A stretch of 64,000 nt of DNA from an uncultured Chloroflexia bacterium (lineage in GTDB: Bacteria; Chloroflexota; Limnocylindria; Limnocylindrales; CSP1-4): assembly GCA_963713975.1 (NCBI GenBank), contig OY970218.1, positions 96,001 to 160,000 on the forward strand, written 5' to 3'. The position numbers were made by a program, and so were the translations under genes. Positions within the stretch are counted from its first letter, which is position 1. Every line of letters begins with the position of its first letter. The notes beneath the pieces were generated by a model. It did no database searches and was not told where the DNA came from. It was given only the letters and a program-made list of their open reading frames with translations. Positions 13,707 through 26,947 of the stretch are shown here, piece by piece.

Positions 13707-13775
13707 CCGCCAGCCGGTGGCAGTCGCGATGCACGCATTGCCTCCCTCGGCACGAGTGTGACAGCGGAGGGATCG

Positions 13776-14048
13776 GTGACCTCGAACGTCGGCCAGAACT
13801 ACCCCTATACCAGCGAGACCGAGGCGGAGCGTGCGACGCGCATCGCAGCGCTCGTCGAGGGGCGCGAGGGCCTGGCCGAGAAGCTCCGGGCAGAGGCGAG
13901 CGATCTGGATCACAACGATCGCTGGTGGGTGTGGAAGTGCCCCACCGCCGGTTGCGAGGGCCTCCTTCACGCGGCGGGCTACGCCGCCGAGAAGCACGCC
14001 GTCTACACGGTGTGCGATGGGACCTGCGCCCGGACCTTCCTCCGTTAG
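13776..14048 (+). CDS. Small Cys/His-rich putative zinc-binding protein (90 aa)
   Basis: GGAGGGA RBS; strong codon bias; WKCPTAGCEGLLH...VCDGTC pattern. Confidence 0.78.
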   Translation: MTSNVGQNYPYTSETEAERATRIAALVEGREGLAEKLRAEASDLDHNDRWWVWKCPTAGCEGLLHAAGYAAEKHAVYTVCDGTCARTFLR

Positions 14049-15238: not shown

Positions 15239-15625
15239 TCAGGCTCGACGAGCCTCGGCCTCCACCTCGACGAGCAGGCTCGGCCGAATCAGTCGTGCCA
15301 CGACCACCAGCGTCGCCGCGGGCCGGACGCGCCCGAACAGCTCACCGTGCACGGCGGCAACCGCGTCAGCGTCAGCAGGATCCGTGAGGTACATCCGGGT
15401 CCGGACCACGTCCTCGACCGCGAACCCGGCCTCCTCCAGCGCTGCCGCGACGATCGCGAACGCCGCACGTACCTGCGCCGGCGCGTCACCCGGGTGCAGC
15501 GACTCGCCGTCCGGGCCCGCGTCGGTGGTGCCCGAGACGAAGCAGGCGTCCCCGACGGCGACGGCCCGGGCGTACCCCGCCCTCGCCTCCCACGGCCCAC
15601 CGCTCGCGACCTGGCGACGGCTCAT
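15239..15625 (-). CDS. RidA/YjgF family protein
   Basis: GYARAV, VSGTT, DVVRTRMY, RPAATLV and LVEVEA motifs. Confidence 0.9.
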   Translation of the reverse strand: MSRRQVASGGPWEARAGYARAVAVGDACFVSGTTDAGPDGESLHPGDAPAQVRAAFAIVAAALEEAGFAVEDVVRTRMYLTDPADADAVAAVHGELFGRVRPAATLVVVARLIRPSLLVEVEAEARRA

Positions 15626-15656
15626 TGGCGACCCCGGGTCGCAGCGCGACGCCGGA

Positions 15657-16907
15657 TCACAGCCCGACGCCGGCCTTCCCCATCCGCTGCGAGCGCCAGC
15701 GGCCGACCTCAGGATCCCTGCCGATCGAGGCGATCAACGCCGCCAGGAGGGTGGTCCGGGGCACGATCGAGGCGACCTCGAGGTACTCGCCGGGTGAATG
15801 GTCGAGACCGCCGATCGGTCCCAATCCGTCGAGGGTCGGGACCCCCATCGACGCCGTCGTGTTCGCGTCCGAGGCGCCACCGGTCGCGGCATCCCGGAGC
15901 TCGAACCCAAGCTGGGCGGCAAGTCCCACGGCGTGGTCGACGAGCCGTCCGGACCTTGCCAGCTTCTCCATCGGCAGGTGGCGCGCGCTCTCGGCCACGG
16001 TGACGGTGACGTCGGGCACAGTGCGGGGAATGAGGATCTCGCGGATGGCCGCCTCGACCTCCTCGAGTCCTCCCCGGGTCACCGCGCGCACGTCCACCTC
16101 CAGCGTGCATCGATCCGCGACCACGTTGGGCCGCGTCCCGCCTTCGATCACGCCCACGTTCACGGTCACGCCGGGCCAGCGCCCGTTGAGCCCGTGGAGG
16201 TCCGTGGTGATCCGCGCCGCCTCCACGATCGCGCTGCGCCCCTTCTCCGGCTCGACCCCGGCGTGGGCGGCGCGCCCACCGACGGTGATGGTCAGGTCGA
16301 GCGTGCCCTTGCGCGACGAGACGATGTCGCCGTTCTGCCGGGCGCACTCGAGCGAGAGGCAGGCATCGGCCTCCGCGGCCAGGCGGCGAATGTGCGGCGT
16401 CGACGCGGGCGACCCGATCTCCTCGTCCGGGTTGGCCACGAACAGGAGGCGCGCCAGCGGCACGCCGCCCAGCGCCTCGCGCAGGGCCGCGATCGCATAC
16501 AGCCCGCTGAGCAGGCCGCTCTTCATGTCCGTGACCCCGGGGCCGGTGGCGATGCCGCCCTGGATGGCAAACGGGCGCTCCGCGGCGGTCCCGGGGTCGA
16601 ACACGGTGTCCATGTGGCCGACGCACAGGAGCGTCGGCCCGGCGGGGTGGGATCCACGCAGCTCGCCGATCACGGTCACCCCGAGGTCCAGGTCGTTCTC
16701 GTGGCAGGTCACCCTGAAGCCGAGTGCCCGCAGGCGCTCCGCCGTCCAGCGGGCGACCGTGTCCACGCCTTGCCTGGTGTAGCTGCCGCAATCCGTGTTG
16801 ACGAGGCGCTCCAGGTCCGCGAGGAGGGTGGGGTAGGCGCGCTCGACACTCGCGCGAAGCGCGGCCAGCTCCTCGGTGTGGATCAGCGTCCTGGGATCGG
16901 GCGTCAT
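15657..16907 (-). CDS. M20 family metallopeptidase (glutamate carboxypeptidase G2-like)
   Basis: GHMDTVF, GPGVTDMKSG, DEEIGS, AAHAG, GGASDAN and DHSPGEY metal-binding motifs; no signal peptide. Confidence 0.92.
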   Translation of the reverse strand: MTPDPRTLIHTEELAALRASVERAYPTLLADLERLVNTDCGSYTRQGVDTVARWTAERLRALGFRVTCHENDLDLGVTVIGELRGSHPAGPTLLCVGHMDTVFDPGTAAERPFAIQGGIATGPGVTDMKSGLLSGLYAIAALREALGGVPLARLLFVANPDEEIGSPASTPHIRRLAAEADACLSLECARQNGDIVSSRKGTLDLTITVGGRAAHAGVEPEKGRSAIVEAARITTDLHGLNGRWPGVTVNVGVIEGGTRPNVVADRCTLEVDVRAVTRGGLEEVEAAIREILIPRTVPDVTVTVAESARHLPMEKLARSGRLVDHAVGLAAQLGFELRDAATGGASDANTTASMGVPTLDGLGPIGGLDHSPGEYLEVASIVPRTTLLAALIASIGRDPEVGRWRSQRMGKAGVGL

Positions 16908-16976
16908 GGGTTGAGTCTACGACCGGACGCCACCGGGCACCTGACCCTGTTCCGGCTCGCGTAGAGTTTCGGCACC
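16908..16976. promoter_or_regulatory. Compact bidirectional promoter between the M20 peptidase and the CphA-like Mur ligase
   Basis: TAGACT on the minus strand (16914-16919), 6 nt from the M20 ATG; TAGAGT on the plus strand (16962-16967), 9 nt from the GTG at 16977; no SD on either side. Confidence 0.6.
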
Positions 16977-18767
16977 GTGCGACTCATCGAGATCCGACTG
17001 CTCGAGGGACCCAACGTCTACCGGCTGCTGCCGGTGGTCAAGGTCGAGGCCGCCATCGGACGGACACGGGCCTGGAGCGGGTCCCGGACGCCGGATGGTG
17101 CGGCGCTGGTCCAACTCGCCAGGGTCGTTCCACCCCGCGCCTGGCCGGACGCGATCGCCGACCTCGTCGCATGGACGCGCCGGCTGCGGGCGGAGCACGG
17201 TGAGCACGGCGGGCCCGTCCATGTCCATCGGGCATCCGATGACGGGCGCTGGGTGGTCACCTGGCCGTGGGATGGCGCCGAACGGGCGCGAGCGATCGCA
17301 GAGGCGGCCGCGGACCTCGCGGCGCGCTCCGTCTCGCCTGGCCGAAGGGTCCGGCTGACCGGGACGCAGGCGCGGCGGGTCGAGATGTGGGCGACGCGGA
17401 TCGCCGAGGCGGGAGCCACGCCGCCATCATGGATCCGGGACCTGGACCGGCGGATGCCCGTCGTGTCGATCACCGGGACCAACGGCAAGTCCACGGTCAC
17501 GCGCCTGATCACGCACATCCTGCAGCTGGCCGGCCATCGCACCGGCGCGACGACCAGCGATGGGATCCTCGTGGACGAGCTCCTGGTGGATGCCGGCGAC
17601 TGGACGGGACCGGGCGGTGCAGCGGCGATCCTCGGGCGGACCGATGTGGACGTGGCTGTCCTGGAGACGGCCCGCGGCGGCATCATCCTGCGCGGCATGG
17701 GCTACGAGTCGAACGATGCCAGCGTGTTCACCAACGTTTCGGCCGACCACCTCGACCTCGGGGGCATCCACACGCTGCCGGAGCTGGCGGAGGTCAAGGC
17801 GACGGTCTGCCGGGTGACGAGGTCCGCCGGCACGGTGCTCCTCAATGCGGACGACCCCCTGGTCGCGGCCGTGGCGCGCAGGCTCCACTCGACGGTCGCG
17901 TACTTCTCGCTGGAGCCGGACACCTCCCCCCTCCTCGCCCGCCACCGGCGCGCCGGTGGTCGGGCCTGGGTCCTGCGTGGCGACCGGCTCCTCGAGTGGG
18001 ACGGCACCGACGAGCACGTGCTCCTCGACGTCGCGGACCTGCCCGTGGCGCTCGGTGGGCTTGCCCCGTACAACGTGGCGAACGCGCTGGCGGCGGCCGG
18101 GGGGGCGCGTGCGATGGGCGCCACCAGGGAGCAGGTGACCGAAGGGTTGCGCGACTTCCAGCCCTCGGCTGACCTCTCGCCAGGCCGGCTCAACCTGTTC
18201 CGCCTTGGCCACCGGACAGTGATCGTGGACTTCGCCCACAACGAGGCCGGCACCGAGGCGATCCTCGACGTCGCAGGCGCCATCGCGGCCGGTATGCCGG
18301 GGCCCGCAGCGGCCATGTCGAGACAGGCCGCGCCAGTCACGGCGATCATCGGCACCGCGGGCGATCGGCCAGACGACACCCTGCGCGGCATCGGGCGGAT
18401 CGCGGCGACCCACGCGCGGCGGGTCGCGATCAAGGAGACGCCCGGCTATCTCCGCGGGCGCAAGCGGTCGGAGATCGTGCAGCTGCTCCGCGAGGGTCTT
18501 GCGCTGGGCGGCCTCGATCCGGCCACGGTGCCCGTGTACGGCGGCGAAGCCGAGGCCCTCGTGGAGGAGCTGGCCGGGTCGGGGGCGATTGCGGCAGCCG
18601 GGGGCGGACCGCTGGACGGCCCGCGCGTGGTGGTCCTGTTCTGCCACGCGGAGCGCGACGAGGTCTTCGCGCTTCTCGATCGTCTCGGGGCGAGGGGGAT
18701 GGACGTGACGACCGAGCTGCGCGACACGGCCCGACGGTTCCGGGACGAGGCACACAATTCGGCGTAG
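16977..18767 (+). CDS. Cyanophycin-synthetase-like Mur ligase: degenerate CphA N domain + M domain, no ATP-grasp domain
   Basis: N-terminus MRLIEIRLLEGPNVY resembles the CphA start. It is followed directly by ITGTNGKST, TTSDG, GDWTGP, AVLETARGG, TNVSADHL, LNADD, NVANALAA, PGRLN, DFAHN and GDRPDD. Confidence 0.88.
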   Translation: MRLIEIRLLEGPNVYRLLPVVKVEAAIGRTRAWSGSRTPDGAALVQLARVVPPRAWPDAIADLVAWTRRLRAEHGEHGGPVHVHRASDDGRWVVTWPWDGAERARAIAEAAADLAARSVSPGRRVRLTGTQARRVEMWATRIAEAGATPPSWIRDLDRRMPVVSITGTNGKSTVTRLITHILQLAGHRTGATTSDGILVDELLVDAGDWTGPGGAAAILGRTDVDVAVLETARGGIILRGMGYESNDASVFTNVSADHLDLGGIHTLPELAEVKATVCRVTRSAGTVLLNADDPLVAAVARRLHSTVAYFSLEPDTSPLLARHRRAGGRAWVLRGDRLLEWDGTDEHVLLDVADLPVALGGLAPYNVANALAAAGGARAMGATREQVTEGLRDFQPSADLSPGRLNLFRLGHRTVIVDFAHNEAGTEAILDVAGAIAAGMPGPAAAMSRQAAPVTAIIGTAGDRPDDTLRGIGRIAATHARRVAIKETPGYLRGRKRSEIVQLLREGLALGGLDPATVPVYGGEAEALVEELAGSGAIAAAGGGPLDGPRVVVLFCHAERDEVFALLDRLGARGMDVTTELRDTARRFRDEAHNSA

Positions 18768-18803
18768 GCGCCCGATCTGGACTCGGGGAGCCGCGGCCCT
18801 CGG

Positions 18804-19865
18804 CTACCGGACGAGGAGCTCCTCCGCGAGTGCCGCGGCAGGTCCGGCGCGGTTGGACCGGTTGGCCAGCACCGCGAGACGGAGCCCGGCCTCCGGGTAC
18901 CAGCGGACGTGGGCCACGTAGCCCGGATCGCCGCCGGGGTGCCCCACCCACCGCCGGGCCCCCTCGCCGTGGACCCACCAGCCGAGGCCGTACCGTGTCT
19001 CCTCCCGGTCGTCGCGGACGCGCACCCGGAGCATCTCGTCCCGCCACACGGGCCCCACCAGGCGTCCATCGCGGAAGGCATCCAGGAAGCGCACGAGGTC
19101 CGCGGCGGTCGAGAATGCCCCGCCATCCGGCTGGCCCCGGGCCGGGATCGCGTACAGGTTGCTGCGCCAGGCCCCGCCCGGATCCTCGTCGGCCGGCGCC
19201 AGGTAGCCGATCGCCACGTCCGGGATCACGTCGTCCTGACACGGGTATCCGGTCGCCGTCATCCCCGCGGGCTCGAGCACGGCCTCCTCAACGGCCTCGT
19301 AGAAGCCCTTGCCCGCCAGGGCCTCGACGACCAGGCCCGCCAGCACGAAGCCGGCGTTGCAGTAGCGGACGTCGGCACCCGGCTTGGCGAGGGCTTGGAG
19401 ATCGGCGAACAGTGGCAGCAGGTCCCGTGGTGACCGGGTCGCGGCGGGGTTGGCCCGCAGCCAGACATCCTCGTACGGCTCGTCGCCGTACTCGTCGCAG
19501 TAGTCGGCGATCCCGGAGCTGTGGGTGAGCAGGTGCTCGAGGGTGACAACGGGATCCAGGCCCCGCGGCCGCAGGCCGGCATCGAGCACGTCCACGACCC
19601 GTGTGTCCGGCGCGGCCAGACCCCGCTCGAAGAGCCTGGCGAGCGTGACGGCGGTGAACAGCTTGGACGCCGATGCGGTCCCGAACCGCGAGGCCGCCGT
19701 GATCGGTCGCCCGCTGGCCCTGTCCGCGATCCCCTGGGCGACCTCGGCCAGGACGCCATCCGGACCGACGGCCAGGACGACGCCGCTGAAGTCGATGGCC
19801 GCCAGGGCCGTCGCCAGCTCCTCGCCCCGCGGTCCGGCGGCCGGGCCGGGACCAAGCCCGGTCAT
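18804..19865 (-). CDS. Serine hydrolase, beta-lactamase/PBP (AmpC-like) family, cytoplasmic
   Basis: SxxK (SASK), LLTHSSG, YxN (YCN) and HPGG motifs; no signal peptide; ATG overlaps the cphA stop (ATGA). Confidence 0.9.
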   Translation of the reverse strand: MTGLGPGPAAGPRGEELATALAAIDFSGVVLAVGPDGVLAEVAQGIADRASGRPITAASRFGTASASKLFTAVTLARLFERGLAAPDTRVVDVLDAGLRPRGLDPVVTLEHLLTHSSGIADYCDEYGDEPYEDVWLRANPAATRSPRDLLPLFADLQALAKPGADVRYCNAGFVLAGLVVEALAGKGFYEAVEEAVLEPAGMTATGYPCQDDVIPDVAIGYLAPADEDPGGAWRSNLYAIPARGQPDGGAFSTAADLVRFLDAFRDGRLVGPVWRDEMLRVRVRDDREETRYGLGWWVHGEGARRWVGHPGGDPGYVAHVRWYPEAGLRLAVLANRSNRAGPAAALAEELLVR

Positions 19866-22771
19866 CCCTCCGGCGCCTCCAGCTCGCCCGGGTCCGCGAA
19901 GGCGGTCGTGCCCTGGGCGCGCCCGGCAAGCGCCATCGCCTGGCGGTACACGTCGACCGCGTCATCGGCACACACCACCACGAGATCGCCCGGGGAGGCG
20001 CGGCGCAGGGCTGTCCTGACGGCGTGCTGCTCGTCGAGGACCTTGTCGACCTTGACCGCCCGGGCCTCGGGTTCGCCGCGTGTGGCACGGATCCCGGCGA
20101 CCACGTTGGCCGCTGTCTCGCCGGGCTTCCTTCCGCGCAGGTTGCGGTCCTCGCGGATCACGATCTCGTCGAACGCGGTGGCGGCCAGGGCGCCGTAGGC
20201 ACGCTGGTCCTCGTCCCGCCGGTCGCCGGGGATCCCGATGACCCCGATCGCGCGTCCGGTCCGGGGCTGGGCCGCGGCCGCGCCGTGCGCGCCGGTGCGG
20301 ACCTGCGGATCGATCATCATGCGGTTCACGAAGTCCGCCAGCTGGCGCATGCCGTCCACGTTGTGGCAGTAGTCGATGACGACGCGCGTCCCGGCGACCT
20401 CGACGAGGTTGAGCCGGCCCGGCGCCTGGAAGAACGACGTGGTGAAGGTCCGCATGCCCTGGCGGATGTCATGGAGGTGCGCGCCCATGGACCACGCGGC
20501 GGCAGCGGCGGCCAGCGTGTTGGCGACGTTCATCCGCGCCCGGCCGCCGAACGTGGCCGGCACCAGGTGCGTGTACAGGACCGGCATCTTGCGCGGCCCG
20601 TGCTTGAGGACGATGAGCTCGCCCTGGGGCGTGTCCTCGAGGCAGAACGCCGCGTTGCCGCGGTTGGTGTGCCCGTCGATCCGGTCGAAGCCGTCCTCGC
20701 CTTTGTGCTTGGCCGTCGAGAACAGGACGACGCGTCCGGCGCAGTGGCGGCCCATCCGGTAGACGTGGTTGTCGTCGGCGTTGAGGACGGCCGTGCCGGA
20801 ACGCGGGACCGCCTCGACCACCACGCCCTTGACCCCCGCCAGCTGGCCCAGTGTGTCGATGCCCCCGAGACCCAGGTGGTCCCCGGTGACGTTGGTGACA
20901 ACCGCGACGTCGTTGCGGTCGTAGCCCAGGCCCTCGCGCAGGATGCCGCCGCGCGCCACCTCGAACACGGCCGTGTCCACCGTCGGGTTCTGGAGGACCA
21001 TCTGGGCGGACCGAGGACCGCTCATGTCGCCCTTCCTGATGAGGCGTCCGTCGATCACGATGCCGTCGGTGGACGTCATCCCGACCCGGCGGCCCATCAG
21101 CTTGAGGACGTGGGCGATCATCCGCACCGTGGTGGTCTTGCCGTTGGTGCCGGTCACCGCGAGGATCGGGATGCGGGCAGGGGCGCCTGGCGGGAACAGC
21201 AGGTCGATCACCGGCCGCGCGACGTACTGGGGCTCGCCCTCGGTGGGGTGGGTGTGCATCCGGAAGCCGGGCGCGGCGTTGACCTCGACGATGCCCCCGC
21301 CGGTCTCGCGCACAGGCTCCTCGATGTCCGGGCAGATGAAGTCGATGCCGGCGATGTCGAGGCCGACCACGCGGGCCGCCGTCTCGGCGATCTCCACGTT
21401 GTCGGGGTGGGCCTCCATCGTCCGGTCGATGGAGGTGCCGCCGGTGCTCATGTTGCCGGTCAATGCGACCTTGACGAAGGCCCCGGCCGCCGGGACGTCG
21501 TCCGGCGCGAAGCCCTGCCCGGCGAGGACCTCGATCGCGTTGTCGTCCAGCTTGATCCGGGTGAGGACCTTCTCGTGGCCGATGCCGCGGCGCGGATCCT
21601 GGTTGGTGAGCTCCACCAGCTGGCGGATGGTCTGCACGCCGTCGCCGGTCACGCTCGCCGGGACGCGTTCGGCAACGGCCGCCAGCTTCCCGCCGATGAC
21701 CAGGCAGCGGTAGTCCCGTCCGGTGATGTAGCTCTCCACGAGCACGTCGCGCGACCGGCTCTGGCGGTAGGCCTCGGGGAAGGCGGCGCGAACGGCGGCC
21801 TCGTCGGCCAGCCCCAGCGCCACGCCGCGGCCGTGGTTGCCGTCGAGCGGCTTGAGCACGCACGGGTAGCCCATCCGGCGCGCGACCGCCACCGCCTCGT
21901 CCTCGGTGGTCACGACCTCGGAGCGCGGGACCGGGAGCCCGGCGGAGTCGAGCAGGCGGTTGGTCAGCTTCTTGTCGGACGCGATGTCCACGGCGATGCC
22001 GCCGGTCCGGCTGGTCATGGTGGCCCGGATGCGCTGCTGGTGGACGCCCTGGCCAAGCTGGACCAGGCTGTAGCGGTCCAGGCGCATGAACGGGATGTCG
22101 CGCACGGCCGCCTCGTCCAGGAGCGCCTGCGTGGACGGACCGAAGGCGAGCCGCTCGGCAACATGGATGAGACCCTCGAGCTCGGTCCCGAGGTCGAACG
22201 CGTGCTCGGGGTCGTCCGGCGCCACGAGGTGGTTGACGAGCGCGACGGCCATCTTCCCGGCCTCGATCCCGACCTGCTCCTCGCGGTATTCGAAGATGAC
22301 GTTGTAGCGACCGTAGTCGCCCGTGCCGCGCGTCTTGCCGTGCCGGACGGGCGTCCCGGCGAGGTTCTGGAGCTCCAGGGCTAGATGCTCGGCCACGTGG
22401 CCCGCCCATGTCCCGTCGCGGAGCCTGGTGATGAACCCACCGCGCCGGCCCAGCGAGCAGGCGTGGTCCTCCAGTGACGGCAGCAACTCCACCAGGGCGT
22501 CCACGAACCCAGGAATCGTGCTGCTCGGGAACTCCTCCAGCACGCCGAGATCCACGACCTGGCGGATCACGGGCTCCTTCGCCCAGTAGTTGGCGCCCCG
22601 CAGGACGCGCGTCTCGAGGATGCGCAGGGTTGGTTCGGGGTGCTTACCGTCCGGCGCGGGTGCGGCTGCCGCGGCGGCGGCCTCTTCCGCGGGGGCCGCC
22701 TGGCCGCCGGCCTCGGCCTTCGCCACCTTCTTCCTCGACCGCTTCGGGGATGCCGGATCCGCCTGGGCCAC
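19862..22771 (-). CDS. cphA: Cyanophycin synthetase CphA1
   Basis: N domain with Cx19HxxEH (HACS...GHVAEH); FGPST; ATP-grasp motifs KPLDGNHGRGV, AVAERVPA, NMSTGG and EVNAAPGFRMH; M domain TGTNGKTT...DYCHN; GAGGAGGG RBS before GTG 22771. Confidence 0.96.
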   Translation of the reverse strand: MAQADPASPKRSRKKVAKAEAGGQAAPAEEAAAAAAAPAPDGKHPEPTLRILETRVLRGANYWAKEPVIRQVVDLGVLEEFPSSTIPGFVDALVELLPSLEDHACSLGRRGGFITRLRDGTWAGHVAEHLALELQNLAGTPVRHGKTRGTGDYGRYNVIFEYREEQVGIEAGKMAVALVNHLVAPDDPEHAFDLGTELEGLIHVAERLAFGPSTQALLDEAAVRDIPFMRLDRYSLVQLGQGVHQQRIRATMTSRTGGIAVDIASDKKLTNRLLDSAGLPVPRSEVVTTEDEAVAVARRMGYPCVLKPLDGNHGRGVALGLADEAAVRAAFPEAYRQSRSRDVLVESYITGRDYRCLVIGGKLAAVAERVPASVTGDGVQTIRQLVELTNQDPRRGIGHEKVLTRIKLDDNAIEVLAGQGFAPDDVPAAGAFVKVALTGNMSTGGTSIDRTMEAHPDNVEIAETAARVVGLDIAGIDFICPDIEEPVRETGGGIVEVNAAPGFRMHTHPTEGEPQYVARPVIDLLFPPGAPARIPILAVTGTNGKTTTVRMIAHVLKLMGRRVGMTSTDGIVIDGRLIRKGDMSGPRSAQMVLQNPTVDTAVFEVARGGILREGLGYDRNDVAVVTNVTGDHLGLGGIDTLGQLAGVKGVVVEAVPRSGTAVLNADDNHVYRMGRHCAGRVVLFSTAKHKGEDGFDRIDGHTNRGNAAFCLEDTPQGELIVLKHGPRKMPVLYTHLVPATFGGRARMNVANTLAAAAAAWSMGAHLHDIRQGMRTFTTSFFQAPGRLNLVEVAGTRVVIDYCHNVDGMRQLADFVNRMMIDPQVRTGAHGAAAAQPRTGRAIGVIGIPGDRRDEDQRAYGALAATAFDEIVIREDRNLRGRKPGETAANVVAGIRATRGEPEARAVKVDKVLDEQHAVRTALRRASPGDLVVVCADDAVDVYRQAMALAGRAQGTTAFADPGELEAPEG

Positions 22772-22899
22772 CTGGTCCCTCCTCGCGTGCGTGGGACCGC
22801 GAGTGTACGCGCTGGGTGGCGTCACGGTTGGAGTGCCGCCCGGCGGGGCCACGACCGCCAAGGAGGACCTCGCCCCTCGGTGATTCGAGACGGCCCCGG

Positions 22900-23733
22900 C
22901 TAGCTCGAGGCGAGCTCGTCGGGGAGCACCTGCAGGTTCGGTGCCACCACCCGGGTCCGTCGGCGGAGGTCGAACCGGTAGCCGGCCGGCAGGCTGTGGA
23001 GCACCACGCCGCTGATCATCAACGGGCGATGGCCCCGGATCTCCCAGGCATCGGTCTCGGAGGCGGCACCATCCACCACGGTGATGGATCCGCGGCCGAT
23101 GACCTCCATGACCTGGTCCGGGCCGACGACGCCCGCGGTGTCCTCGTCCACGCCCAGGCCTAGCAGCGCCGGGTTTTGGGCGATGAGGCTGAGGAGCCGG
23201 CCGAGGCGGTTCCGCTGCTGGAAGTGCTGGTCCACGATGACGCCGGGCAGCAGCCCCAGGCCCGCGGCGATCTGCGCCATCCGGTGCTTGGGCGTGGCGC
23301 CGGACGCCCCGAACGCGATCATGTGCGACGACACCGCGCTCGCACCGGCCGATGTCCCGGCGACCACGGCCCCCGCCGCGAAGCGCTCCGAGATCGCGCT
23401 GGCCATCCGGGTGCCGGCGATCATCGACGACAGGCGCAGCTGGTTGCCGCCGGTCATGAAGATGCCGCTGGCGTCAGCCACGATGCGGGCGGCATGCTCG
23501 TCGTTCGCCTGCATCCGCGTGGTGGCGTTGAGGGGGATCACCTCCGCGGCGCCGAGCTCCGTGAACACGGTCCGGTACCGCTCGCCGGCCTCAGTGCCGA
23601 AGGAGCTGGCGGTGGCGATGACCGCGATCCGCGCTTCGGGACCACCCGCGAGCGCGACGAAACGGCCGAGGATGACCCGGTCACGGACCTTGTCCTCCGC
23701 CCCGCCGATAACGATCACGGTCCCCTGCGGCAT
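22900..23733 (-). CDS. cphB: Cyanophycinase (S51 serine peptidase)
   Basis: IIGGAEDK, FMTGGNQLRL, GTSAGA, IVDQHFQQRNRLGRL and GVDEDT motifs; immediately upstream of cphA. Confidence 0.95.
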   Translation of the reverse strand: MPQGTVIVIGGAEDKVRDRVILGRFVALAGGPEARIAVIATASSFGTEAGERYRTVFTELGAAEVIPLNATTRMQANDEHAARIVADASGIFMTGGNQLRLSSMIAGTRMASAISERFAAGAVVAGTSAGASAVSSHMIAFGASGATPKHRMAQIAAGLGLLPGVIVDQHFQQRNRLGRLLSLIAQNPALLGLGVDEDTAGVVGPDQVMEVIGRGSITVVDGAASETDAWEIRGHRPLMISGVVLHSLPAGYRFDLRRRTRVVAPNLQVLPDELASS

Positions 23734-23824
23734 GGTCACGGGAGTCTAGCAGCGTGCAGGGGACGGCCCGGATCGCTGTGCGGCCCGGATCGCACACGCG
23801 GAGACCGACGGCAGGCGAGAATGC

Positions 23825-24820
23825 ATGCTCATGAGCGCCCGGGCCACCCACGTGCGGCGGCCGGCCCGCCGGGCCGGCGTCATCCGGCGCGCCCTGCGCA
23901 GGGAGGCGACGCGCCTCGGCGAGCCCCGGCGGATCGCCGCCATGGTCATCCTCGTCATCCCGCTCGCCTTGACGCTGGCCGGGATGGCGGCGCGCGGCGG
24001 GACGGCAGGCGCGGATGCCCAGGCCTACTGGGCGGCCGTGCGACTCTGGCTCGAGGGCGGCAACCCTTACCACCCCACCGGCCCGTTCCTGCCCTACGTC
24101 TACGCGCCGTGGATGCTCCCACTGTTCGCGCCGTGGGCGCTGCTCCCCTGGGATGTCGCGTGGTTCGCGTGGCGGGGCGGCACCATCCTGCTGCTCCTGT
24201 GGTCGATCCGATGGGCGTACTCGCGACGACCGCTGCCCACGGCGATCCTGGTGCTCCTGCTGGCGTTTCCGATGGCCGCGAACCTCGACACCGGGAACAT
24301 CAACCTGCTCCTGGCACTGGCGCTCTTCGGCGCGCACTTCACGGGGCCGCGCCTCGGCGGTCTCATCTGGGGTCTCGCGACCTGGATGAAGTGGGTGCCG
24401 GCGCCACTTTGGCTGGTCCTTCCTCCCAAGGCCCGCCGGTGGGGGCTCGTGTTCCTCGCCCTGTCCGGCCTGCTCTCGTTGCTGATGCTGCCGCTCACGA
24501 TCGTCCAGCTCCAGGCCCTGTTCGGGTTCGGCGAACGTCCGTTCCGCGCGGACTACCTCGTGTTCATCTGGTCTGCCGTCCCGTGGTGGTGGCGGCTTCG
24601 CGATCCGTTCGCCTTCCTGCGGCTCTCGGCGTGGATCCTTGCGGCGAGGACCATGGCTGCACAGTCGCGCCGATGGGGCCGTGCGCTGCGGACCGAACCG
24701 CGTGCCACGCTGCGGACAGCGCGCATCTCCCTATGGGCGTGGGGCCGCAGCTACCTTGGCCTGGACGGTGACTCCGGACAGGAGACCACGACCCACGCGG
24801 TGGCCGAGATCGGCGACTGA
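23825..24820 (+). CDS. GT87/DUF2029-like polyprenol-phosphate-sugar glycosyltransferase (membrane protein)
   Basis: D..AYW.A, PYVYAPW, GNINLLL and K-W-V-P motifs; multiple TM segments. Confidence 0.75.
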   Translation: MLMSARATHVRRPARRAGVIRRALRREATRLGEPRRIAAMVILVIPLALTLAGMAARGGTAGADAQAYWAAVRLWLEGGNPYHPTGPFLPYVYAPWMLPLFAPWALLPWDVAWFAWRGGTILLLLWSIRWAYSRRPLPTAILVLLLAFPMAANLDTGNINLLLALALFGAHFTGPRLGGLIWGLATWMKWVPAPLWLVLPPKARRWGLVFLALSGLLSLLMLPLTIVQLQALFGFGERPFRADYLVFIWSAVPWWWRLRDPFAFLRLSAWILAARTMAAQSRRWGRALRTEPRATLRTARISLWAWGRSYLGLDGDSGQETTTHAVAEIGD

Positions 24821-26230: not shown

Positions 26231-26947
26231 TCAGGCCTCCTCCACGGGGCGTCCGCGCTCGTCGAGCGCGAAGTTGCTGTTCGGACGCGCGAGGGCGCGT
26301 TCTGTTGCTCCGGTGGCCGCAAAACGGAACAGGGAACGGTCCGCGGAGTAGAGCGCTGTGGAGGCGATCCCGATCACTCCCAACCGGAACGTGAAGATCG
26401 GGTTCTCGGGGTTGCCGGCGTAGGTGTGGGGCGTGCCGTCGCGGGTGAGGACCGCCATGTTGGCCACGCCGCGGAAGGTCTCGTGCAGGGCCGCGAGGAG
26501 GTGCCCGGGCTGGCGACCGTCCGTCCAGGCATCCTCCAGCCAGCGCTGGGCGACCTTGGTGTCCGCCCGGCCATGGATCCGTCCGGCGGCACGGTAGCGG
26601 GCCCGGGCCGACCGGTAGTCGCGCAGGTCACCGTTGTGTGCGAACGCGAAGCGGCCCGCAGGGTCCACGAAGGGTTGCGCGTCCGGAACCCCGAGCGTCG
26701 AGAGGCGTGAGGGCCGTCGGAGGTGGACGAGCAGGCTCGTCGTCTCGATGGCGCCCAACCGGTCGCGATCAGGGTCCTCGCGGAAGGCGCCCACCTGGAC
26801 GTGGGACTCGAGGTGGCCCGCGGGGGTCAGCCAGCTGGCGCCCCAGCCGAAGCCCGCGATGCCGTACCGCTCCATGCGCTCGGCGAAGGACAACAACTGA
26901 TTGAGCCGGAACGGCACCGCGGAACGGGCGACGAACTGCTCGCACAT
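26231..26947 (-). CDS. Class II glutamine amidotransferase-like Ntn hydrolase (EgtC/YafJ-like)
   Basis: N-terminal Met-Cys nucleophile; GFGWG, HLRR, QPF and FAHNG motifs. Confidence 0.8.
   Translation of the reverse strand: MCEQFVARSAVPFRLNQLLSFAERMERYGIAGFGWGASWLTPAGHLESHVQVGAFREDPDRDRLGAIETTSLLVHLRRPSRLSTLGVPDAQPFVDPAGRFAFAHNGDLRDYRSARARYRAAGRIHGRADTKVAQRWLEDAWTDGRQPGHLLAALHETFRGVANMAVLTRDGTPHTYAGNPENPIFTFRLGVIGIASTALYSADRSLFRFAATGATERALARPNSNFALDERGRPVEEA

What the first reader, a model, noticed from the sequence alone, without database searches (positions are those of the whole stretch)
15239..23733. Extended cyanophycin locus with an extra ATP-grasp-less synthetase and non-canonical hydrolases: candidate new polymer-modification/turnover system
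Seen: cphB-cphA1-serine hydrolase form one minus-strand unit that converges on a second CphA paralogue. That paralogue shares a 69-bp bidirectional promoter with an M20 carboxypeptidase followed by ridA. Known: canonical loci are cphA1+cphB, often with an isoaspartyl dipeptidase (IaaA, IadA or CphZ), and none of those is recognisable in this window. Inference: the locus may build a non-standard cyanophycin-like polymer, with a second ligase adding a different or additional side-chain residue, and dismantle it with dedicated M20 and SxxK hydrolases. The adjacent GGT, AzlCD exporter and MFS would fit amino-acid/isopeptide flux, but their link is weaker.
Basis: partly seen in the sequence, partly recalled or inferred. 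Interest (0 to 1): 0.85.

Follow-up and report, generated by a model that had tools for sequence, protein, structure and literature searches.

The report
Third gene of cyanophycin storage module
Next to the usual genes that build and break down the nitrogen-storage polymer cyanophycin lies an unstudied cut-down relative of the synthetase. It is inherited with them in many bacterial phyla and probably attaches something other than arginine to the polymer, while the two neighbouring peptidases are not dedicated parts.

Summary
All six genes are real. The system has three genes, not five: cphB, cphA1 and the ATP-grasp-less paralogue (X, 16977-18767). X keeps a CphA N-domain fold without its zinc site and an intact Mur-ligase M domain. 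It is a separate family. Among motif-picked genome loci, cphA1 lies near X in 57 of 57 with full flanks, across eight phyla. The two genes' trees mirror each other and presence is nearly all-or-none in two families. In 7 relatives the X-cphA1-cphB block is missing while the M20 peptidase stays intact, so M20 is not dedicated. The SxxK hydrolase sits at this site in 3 of 29 congeners; RidA, GGT, AzlCD and MFS are family-level synteny. X retains the ATP/Mg/catalytic residues but lacks three aspartates near-invariant in partner CphA1s, in the loops that select the amino acid in MurE; it has conserved Tyr/His/Arg there. Best reading (0.5): a trans-acting ligase adding a non-arginine residue to cyanophycin. 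No activity is shown. No IaaA, IadA or CphZ was found in the genome. I found no paper on X. The scan noted this family before in other genomes.

The parts
16977..18767 (+). X: ATP-grasp-less CphA relative, 596 aa. Residues about 1-155 are a CphA-type N domain without the Cx19HxxEH zinc site; about 158-575 are a complete Mur-ligase M domain (core and lid). Core member of the module.
   Evidence: domains; N-domain profile and fold; residues; family and neighbourhood
19862..22771 (-). cphA1, full N-G-M cyanophycin synthetase with the primer-making Cx19HxxEH motif. Likely start is the GTG at 22771 behind a GAGGAGG element; the open frame reaches 22861. Core member.
   Evidence: TIGR02068 over cut-off; motif read; start
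22900..23733 (-). cphB cyanophycinase; TAGACT hexamer 9 nt before the ATG at 23733 (alternative GTG at 23739). Core member.
   Evidence: TIGR02069 over cut-off
16908..16976 (.). 69-bp divergent intergenic region with two opposite TANNNT (-10-like) hexamers: + strand 16962-16967, - strand 16914-16919. Probably two near-leaderless promoters.
   Evidence: hexamer before X in 41 of 43 related loci; no full sigma-70 site or terminator
15657..16907 (-). M20 metallopeptidase, carboxypeptidase-G2-like (below the PRK06133 cut-off). Long-standing neighbour of X in two Limnocylindria families and a few other loci, but kept when the cyanophycin block is lost: associated, not dedicated.
   Evidence: 19, 58, 65, 118, 120
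18804..19865 (-). SxxK (beta-lactamase/PBP-like) serine hydrolase with SASK and YCN motifs, overlapping the cphA1 stop. Occupies a variable slot between X and cphA1; accessory.
   Evidence: 19, 57, 99, 118
15239..15625 (-). RidA/YjgF-family gene downstream of M20; family-level backbone gene, not part of the module.
   Evidence: present in 23 of 31 readable congener loci, 0 of 17 f3 loci, and also kept in block-less loci L381, L383, L387

Best explanation
The locus is a three-gene cyanophycin module, cphB + cphA1 + X. CphA1 makes ordinary poly(Asp-Arg) and can prime itself; CphB degrades it. X is the mirror image of CphA2: it lost the backbone-building G domain and kept the polymer-anchoring N fold plus a catalytically complete M domain. 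Most likely X works in trans on CphA1-made chains. It would use ATP to activate a polymer carboxylate, most simply the free beta-carboxyl of a chain-terminal Asp, and join it to the alpha-amino group of an amino acid other than arginine. An acidic or neutral residue such as Glu or Asp is my guess. The product would be capped or compositionally edited cyanophycin. Shown by sequence: architecture, retained catalytic residues, altered acceptor loops, co-inheritance, module borders. Inferred: that the substrate is cyanophycin, that the reaction runs forward, and what the acceptor is.
For: (1) Catalytic residues named in PMC9427784 (K499, T500, T522, E558, R731, H748) and PMC9262961 (D585, H586), mapped through the alignment. 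K171, D257, H258, R404 and H421 are kept in 77 of 77 X rows; S172 and S194 are T or S in 77 of 77. E230 and R233 are also 77 of 77 but were fixed by my search motif. (2) Partner CphA1s keep an Asp at three lid positions (64, 64 and 63 of 64 rows). X does not conserve them and has Y491 63/77, H557 62/77 and R560 69/77 instead. Profile alignment places these loops on the DNPR loop and the GKGHE loop of the genome's own MurE. In S. aureus MurE, Asp406 and Glu460 of these loops bind the Lys epsilon-amino group and an acidic pocket favours basic substrates (PMC3829189). (3) Co-inheritance: 57 of 57 full-flank genome loci have cphA1 within about 13 kb (55, the other 2); 15 of 15 metagenome loci. X rows form one side of a branch (SH-aLRT 99); X and partner distances correlate r=0.89 over 64 pairs. 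Family of Nocardioides lijunqiniae: 42 both, 2 single, 57 neither of 101. Family of Lysobacter Root916: 51 with two M-domain genes, 3 single, 146 neither of 200. (4) The block is lost as a unit in 7 relatives. (5) A primer-cutting role is not needed: 148 of 150 partner CphA1s keep C..HxxEH and 0 of 202 X rows have it.
Against: No activity data exist. The mapping to MurE pocket residues shifts by 1-2 columns between alignments, rests on one MurE sequence, and no Arg-bound CphA1 lid structure was available to me. The net charge of the three loops is similar in X and CphA1 (-1.7/+2.1/-0.6 against -1.3/+1.5/-0.6), so there is no wholesale charge reversal. X also lost conserved basic residues of CphA1 (R465, R486 columns). 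Two more distant full-length CphA1 rows lack one or more of the three Asp (P0187, P0248). CphA1 exists without X: five f14 Chloroflexota genomes (only 3 candidates scored each) and 11 of 23 positive genomes in the family of Ruegeria sp. 2205SS24-7 (8 loci fetched, none with X). X is retained next to a deleted cphA1-cphB in G011 (intact residues) and G005, and is unlinked from cphA1 in family f31. Co-divergence of neighbours shows co-inheritance, not a shared substrate.
Confidence: 0.5

Rival explanations
1. X is a spare arginine/lysine ligase that fills in or repairs unsubstituted Asp side chains, making ordinary cyanophycin more efficiently.
For: All catalytic residues and R464/R493 are shared with CphA1; loop net charges are alike; X sits in one operon with cphB-cphA1 in the proteobacterial-type loci.
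Against: The three Asp near-invariant in partner CphA1 lids are not conserved and new residues are fixed. Partner CphA1s have intact M domains. X is only 30-43% identical to its own partner's M domain.
Confidence: 0.15
2. X acts in turnover or re-priming: it re-uses CphB-released beta-Asp-Arg by ligating Asp to form the minimal primer (beta-Asp-Arg)-Asp, or runs backwards to strip side chains with ADP and phosphate.
For: (beta-Asp-Arg)-Asp is the minimal primer (PMC9262961). A pocket for an acidic acceptor would fit Asp. The host lineage lacks known dipeptidases.
Against: Partner CphA1s make their own primers. IadA sits beside X in 9 of 80 loci, so X does not replace the dipeptidase.
Confidence: 0.13
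3. X is mainly a subunit or regulator of the CphA1 oligomer, docking its M core on CphA1 G domains and tuning rate, chain length or granule location.
For: In CphA1 tetramers Mcore contacts three Gcore modules (PMC9427784); mirrored trees would fit an interface.
Against: Invariant ATP and catalytic residues argue for catalysis. X has its own promoter on the opposite strand in the terrabacterial layout and evolves faster than its partner (mean p-distance 0.56 against 0.45).
Confidence: 0.12
4. One reading: X modifies the polymer and the M20 (for example by releasing a terminal Glu, or by splitting beta-Asp-Arg) and SxxK enzymes are its dedicated dismantling enzymes.
For: M20 is head-to-head with X in 31 of 31 congeners, 10 of 10 other f1 loci and 16 of 17 f3 genomes despite a changed outer context, and lies beside X in L283, L290 and L311. 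Its closest solved relative is carboxypeptidase G2. M20 and the block are both missing in 14 sampled genomes. No known dipeptidase is present.
Against: M20 persists in 9 genomes without cphA, in 7 of them at a locus where the block is cleanly absent, with 99 of 122 conserved positions fully kept. It is near X in only 19 of 80 motif-picked loci. SxxK matches in 7 of 74 genomes, 3 of them elsewhere on the chromosome. I put a non-dedicated role of M20 on cyanophycin-derived peptides at about 0.3, and any role of SxxK at under 0.1.
Confidence: 0.06
5. X ligates amino acids to an unrelated substrate and merely rides along with cphA1.
For: Cases of X without a linked cphA1 (G011, G005, family f31).
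Against: All-or-none presence in two unrelated families, two different gene layouts, the retained N fold, and joint loss.
Confidence: 0.04

Closest known systems
Cyanophycin synthetase 1 (CphA1; TIGR02068; PDB 7LG5, 7LGJ, 7WAE, 7LGN)
   Same: N-domain fold (hhalign 96.9%; top Foldseek hits). M domain about 35-41% identical with P-loop, Mg ligands, DH and lid R/H kept.
   Different: No G (ATP-grasp) domain; no Cx19HxxEH zinc site; three lid aspartates not conserved; fixed Y491/H557/R560; separate clade; 360 bits against a cut-off of 850.
Cyanophycin synthetase 2 (CphA2; PDB 7TA5, 8FXI)
   Same: A reduced CphA with a non-catalytic N domain and a single active site, found beside CphA1 systems; N fold is the top VIA match (Z 8.8, rmsd 3.6, 112 aligned).
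   Different: The opposite reduction: CphA2 keeps G and lacks the M P-loop and lid; X lacks G and keeps all of M. CphA2 is cyanobacterial; none of the 80 listed X loci was.
MurE and other Mur ligases (1E8C, 4C12)
   Same: Stand-alone Mur middle and C-terminal domains; same predicted acyl-phosphate chemistry (recalled).
   Different: The N-terminal domain is CphA-type, not the Mur nucleotide-sugar domain; no DNPR-type motif; the genome has its own MurE elsewhere.
Carboxypeptidase G2 (1CG2) and CphZ/IadA/IaaA dipeptidases, for the M20 gene
   Same: M20 fold with HxD, D and EE metal/catalytic residues.
   Different: Below the PRK06133 cut-off (279 against 349); unrelated to IaaA, IadA or CphZ; the Arg of the CPG2 'GRPAF' loop (recalled as substrate-binding R324) is not in register.

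Membership tests
CphA1 (for X) | G (ATP-grasp) domain between N and M | tested here: not met
   No ATP-grasp Pfam hit; M domain starts at residue 158; 71 of 80 motif-picked loci G-less, 7 cut at the 5' end, 2 with G
CphA1 (for X) | N domain fold | tested here: met
   hhalign 96.9%, E 1.6e-10; model pLDDT 88.6; CphA1/CphA2 are the top fold hits
CphA1 (for X) | N-domain Cx19HxxEH primer-cutting site (present in 83% of CphA1, PMC9262961) | tested here: not met
   0 of 202 X rows have HxxEH
CphA1 (for X) | M domain with P-loop Lys, Mg ligands, D585/H586, lid R731/H748 | tested here: met
   77 of 77 X rows (numbering)
CphA1 (for X) | TIGR02068 score over curated cut-off | tested here: not met
   360.4 against 850 bits
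CphA1 (for X) | Ligates Arg to the Asp beta-carboxyl of cyanophycin | not testable with these tools
   Needs an enzyme assay; lid residues differ
CphA2 (for X) | Active G domain, and M domain lacking P-loop and lid | tested here: not met
   X has the reverse layout
MurE (for X) | Mur N-terminal domain and DNPR-type motif | tested here: not met
   N terminus matches CphA N; KETPGYLR at the DNPR loop
CphA1 (for 19862-22771) | N-G-M domains, TIGR02068 over cut-off, Cx19HxxEH | tested here: met
   1129.9 bits; domains; motif read
CphB (for 22900-23733) | TIGR02069 over cut-off | tested here: met
   257.6 against 126.6 bits
Glutamate carboxypeptidase / CPG2 (for M20) | PRK06133 over cut-off | tested here: not met
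   279.1 against 349 bits; two orthologues 303-305
Dedicated cyanophycin hydrolase (for M20) | Gained and lost with cphA1/cphB | tested here: not met
   Kept intact in 7 loci lacking the block
Dedicated cyanophycin hydrolase (for M20) | Hydrolyses beta-Asp-Arg or polymer fragments | not testable with these tools
   Needs an assay
Dedicated cyanophycin hydrolase (for SxxK) | Conserved co-location with cph genes | tested here: not met
   3 of 29 congeners, 1 of 10 other f1 loci, 0 of 17 f3

The most novel reading that the evidence does not exclude
Many non-cyanobacterial cyanophycin producers (Limnocylindria, Thermomicrobia, Nocardioides and other Actinomycetota, Lysobacter, roseobacters, myxobacteria, planctomycetes) do not make plain poly(Asp-Arg). 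A third synthetase class, X, writes an acidic amino acid such as Glu onto the chain as a cap or branch, giving a chemically distinct storage polymer. In Limnocylindria the neighbouring CPG2-like M20 peptidase removes that residue or is the missing isopeptide dipeptidase.
Probability: 0.25. Interest if true: 0.8.

Novelty: new variant of a known kind. Interest (0 to 1): 0.6.

Why it matters
Cyanophycin biosynthesis is described with two enzymes, CphA1 and CphA2, and the polymer is treated as Asp plus a basic residue. X is a third, widespread CphA-derived enzyme, found in 42 of 101 and about 51 of 200 genomes of two unrelated families. It has an intact ligase site and a changed acceptor pocket. 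If it edits the polymer, the chemistry of a common bacterial nitrogen store is incompletely known, and a stand-alone side-chain ligase would be a tool for tailoring poly-aspartate materials. It can be tested at once in cultured strains that carry the module (Nocardioides alkalitolerans DSM 16699, Lysobacter sp. Root916, Plesiocystis pacifica SIR-1). The lineage also lacks every known beta-Asp-Arg dipeptidase, an open question that Sharon and Schmeing raise for other clades.

Tried and rejected
Pseudogene or assembly artefact for X: rejected; near-full-length orthologues in 31 of 36 congeners and invariant catalytic residues. Split cphA1 with X supplying a missing M domain: rejected; partner M domains are intact. 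X as primer-cutting peptidase: rejected. Wholesale charge reversal of the acceptor pocket: not seen in loop net charge. The search motif GD[YW][ST]G[PF]xGA as a diagnostic of X: not strict; it also occurs in full-length synthetases (L279, L338, L401), so positions 207-215, 230-235 and also 239 were not used as evidence. My first N-motif regex scored 45 partner CphA1s as 'HxxEH only'; the printed rows show a C 20-21 residues upstream, so I counted them as having the site. Root of the tree with one MurE outgroup: X monophyly unresolved (support 0); the unrooted split has SH-aLRT 99 from a quick search without bootstrap. Sigma-70 promoter and terminator scan: nothing. RNA runs: no RNA holder listed. 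Complex prediction X + CphA1 was not run, since a pass would follow from likeness to solved CphA1. Literature: searches listed no paper on a G-less CphA; one search returned nothing; Sharon et al. 2021 (Nat Chem Biol) is not held, so its polymer-binding residues were not checked.
Full report
1. Observation. The six genes lie as described. cphB and cphA1 pass their curated NCBIfam cut-offs. The 596-aa plus-strand gene, called X here, has only Mur-ligase domains and aligns to the M domain of the local CphA1 at 39% over 355 columns, plus a weak N-terminal match. Named relatives of X come from Candidatus Limnocylindrales, Chloroflexota; GC is flat at 69-75% across the window. The 69-bp M20/X gap holds a TANNNT hexamer on each strand just before each start codon; the one before X recurs in 41 of 43 related loci that gave a hit, out of 60 loci given to the script. 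These relatives are kin, so this shows conservation, not independent origin. IaaA, IadA and AstE/AspA-type CphZ were not found in the 92%-complete genome.

2. Anatomy of X. A full-length model (pLDDT 75.9) matches CphA1 structures first. The N-terminal 160 residues, folded with an 81-row alignment (pLDDT 88.6), match the CphA N domain: hhalign 96.9%, the first ten Foldseek rows all CphA1 or CphA2 although only one has E under 0.001, and VIA Z 8.8 to CphA2. The primer-cutting HxxEH site is absent in 202 of 202 X rows and present in 148 of 150 partner CphA1 rows; the other two look frameshifted. The M-domain residues named in PMC9427784 and PMC9262961 are kept in all 77 X rows from the genome loci. 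So X is the mirror image of CphA2, which keeps G and lacks the M P-loop and lid.

3. X is a family that travels with cphA1. It is near full length in 31 of 36 congeners and absent from 24 of 24 small genomes of the sister family. A profile search returned dozens of 520-610-aa G-less representatives. I scanned species genomes with an M-domain motif that says nothing about G or neighbours (the scan stopped at 120 matches, 80 of them with flanks). Of these 80, 71 were G-less, 7 were cut at the 5' end and 2 were full-length synthetases. Of 57 with at least 6 kb on both sides, 55 held cphA1 and the other 2 have it 9-13 kb away. In metagenome contigs the figure was 15 of 15. Record titles span Chloroflexota, Actinomycetota, Pseudomonadota, Planctomycetota, Myxococcota, Gemmatimonadota, Acidobacteriota and Rhodothermota. 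Two layouts dominate: X converging on cphA1-cphB (terrabacteria) and (iadA)-cphB-cphA1-X in one direction (others) (IadA confirmed, 9 of 80 loci). In an 84-row M-domain tree X is one side of a branch (SH-aLRT 99) and the sub-clades mirror those of the partner CphA1s; distances correlate at r=0.89 over 64 pairs (kin inflate this). Family samples: 42 both, 2 single, 57 neither of 101 (the cphA1-only case ends at a contig edge). In a second family, 51 with two M-domain genes, 3 single, 146 neither of 200; by spacing at most two of the 51 leave room for a second full synthetase, not checked one by one; of the 3 singles, two are tandem full-length pairs of another type and one is X with cphA1 cut by the contig end. 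Against universality: in a third family 12 have the pair and 11 a single gene of 301 (4 candidates scored per genome); 8 of those 11 loci were fetched and none has X. Five f14 Chloroflexota have cphA1 only. G011 and G005 keep X beside a cphA1 stub. Family f31 has X unlinked.

4. Module borders. In 7 genomes of the window's family (G240, G296, G304, G444, G003, G021, G036) M20 lies next to, or within about 1.6 kb of, the GT87 gene that flanks cphB here, and X, cphA1 and cphB are absent from the locus; a CphA search finds nothing in those genomes. Two more (G143, G034) have M20 at a contig edge and no cphA hit. The orphan M20s keep their metal and catalytic residues 7 of 7 and 99 of 122 conserved positions fully. 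So the unit of gain and loss is X-cphA1-cphB. M20 is nonetheless a stable head-to-head neighbour: 31 of 31 congeners (two with an inserted gene), 10 of 10 other f1 loci, 16 of 17 f3 genomes (one contig ends), and beside X in L283, L290 and L311; it is not at the locus in f18 or f82 and is near X in 19 of 80 motif-picked loci. IaaA occurs in 4 and IadA in 0 of 74 genomes that I picked from this class and two further families, so an unknown dipeptidase is needed and M20 is a candidate, but not a dedicated one. The SxxK gene fills a variable slot: 3 of 29 readable congeners, 1 of 10 other f1 loci, 0 of 17 f3; 7 of 74 genomes match at E under 1e-40, three of them elsewhere on the chromosome. RidA, GGT, AzlCD and MFS are f1 backbone genes, replaced by a thioesterase and a dehydrogenase cluster in f3.

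5. Mechanism. In MurE the lid loops DNPR and GKGHE bind the side chain of the incoming amino acid; Asp406 and Glu460 hold the Lys amino group (PMC3829189). Profile alignments put X K486-E487-T488 and H557-R560 on these loops of the genome's own MurE, with a 1-2 column shift between alignments. Partner CphA1s have Asp at the columns of X 468, 488 and 558 in 64, 64 and 63 of 64 rows; X varies there and has Y491 (63/77), H557 (62/77) and R560 (69/77). R464, which by recalled numbering equals the MurE arginine that binds the acceptor's alpha-carboxylate, is invariant in both. The column of E607, a polymer contact in SuCphA1, is Glu or Asp in 62 of 64 CphA1 and Arg or Lys in 62 of 77 X. I infer an ATP-dependent amino-acid ligase that acts on cyanophycin with an acceptor other than Arg (0.5). 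An acidic acceptor is a weaker guess, because the overall loop charge is not reversed. The alternative side-chain residues named in the part of PMC8050183 that I read are Lys, Orn and citrulline, with Glu in the backbone.

6. What is known. I found no paper on an N+M-only CphA in seven searches. What I saw: PMC9262961 abstract, first half of Results, Discussion and reference passages; PMC9427784 passages and section 10; bioRxiv 2023.04.15.537035 part 1 of 4; PMC10206079 parts 1-2 of 5, Discussion and passages; PMC9974463 passages; bioRxiv 2022.11.30.518518 passages; PMC3829189 passages; PMC8050183 part 1 of 4; bioRxiv 2023.01.09.523336 one passage. No supplements were read; genome tables there, and subscription reviews such as the 2007 CphA classification (recalled, not seen), may list such proteins. 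Databases label relatives 'cyanophycin synthetase' or 'Mur ligase family protein'. Earlier agents of this scan reported the same family in other genomes (8 notes shown, look-alikes in 29 windows); I read them after reaching my view and they are not independent evidence. A word search for a pocket or M20 reading returned nothing.

7. Verdict. A real, uncharacterised third gene of a cyanophycin module; a new variant of a known kind, interest 0.6.

Noticed in passing
window 16908-16976 and upstream of 23733: TANNNT hexamers 6-9 nt before the starts of X, M20 and cphB, conserved in relatives, suggest near-leaderless transcription in this lineage.
   Followed up: partly
L042 (G011) and L061 (G005): cphA1 is reduced to a 3' stub and cphB is gone, while X is retained (intact catalytic residues in G011; broken frames in G005, where M20 is also frameshifted, so sequencing error is possible).
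   Followed up: partly
L250, L252, L398 against L251, L253 (family f31); L254, L256 against L255, L397 (family f69): X lies far from cphA1 in these Chloroflexota families although both genes are present.
   Followed up: no
proteins P0183, P0203, P0214, P0227, P0236, P0246, P0254, P0258, P0260: Other short CphA-like proteins lacking most of G fall inside the CphA1 clades, not with X: independent internal deletions or assembly artefacts.
   Followed up: no
L279, L338, L399-L405: A type of full-length synthetase (Clostridia, Desulfotignum, several genomes of the Ruegeria family) has an X-like GDYSGPxxA..RRGLG core and a shortened DNPR-equivalent loop, and has no X beside it.
   Followed up: partly
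proteobacterial-type X proteins, e.g. P0195, P0235, P0265: These keep about 40 extra residues before the P-loop that look like the start of the G core, unlike terrabacterial X.
   Followed up: no
window 13758-14048 (+): A 96-aa protein with CxxxxC/CxxxC motifs and no Pfam hit, conserved between GGT and azlC across family f1.
   Followed up: no
window 26231-26947 (-) and 23825-24820 (+): A stand-alone class II glutamine amidotransferase domain starting M-C, and a GT87 glycosyltransferase, are conserved backbone neighbours that remain when the cyanophycin block is lost.
   Followed up: partly
L418 (G000:C1:2879358-2881070): The genome's MurE-like gene has DEDPR in place of the DNPR motif.
   Followed up: no
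L329: An Acidobacteriota locus with X flanked by two cphB copies and divergent from cphA1.
   Followed up: no
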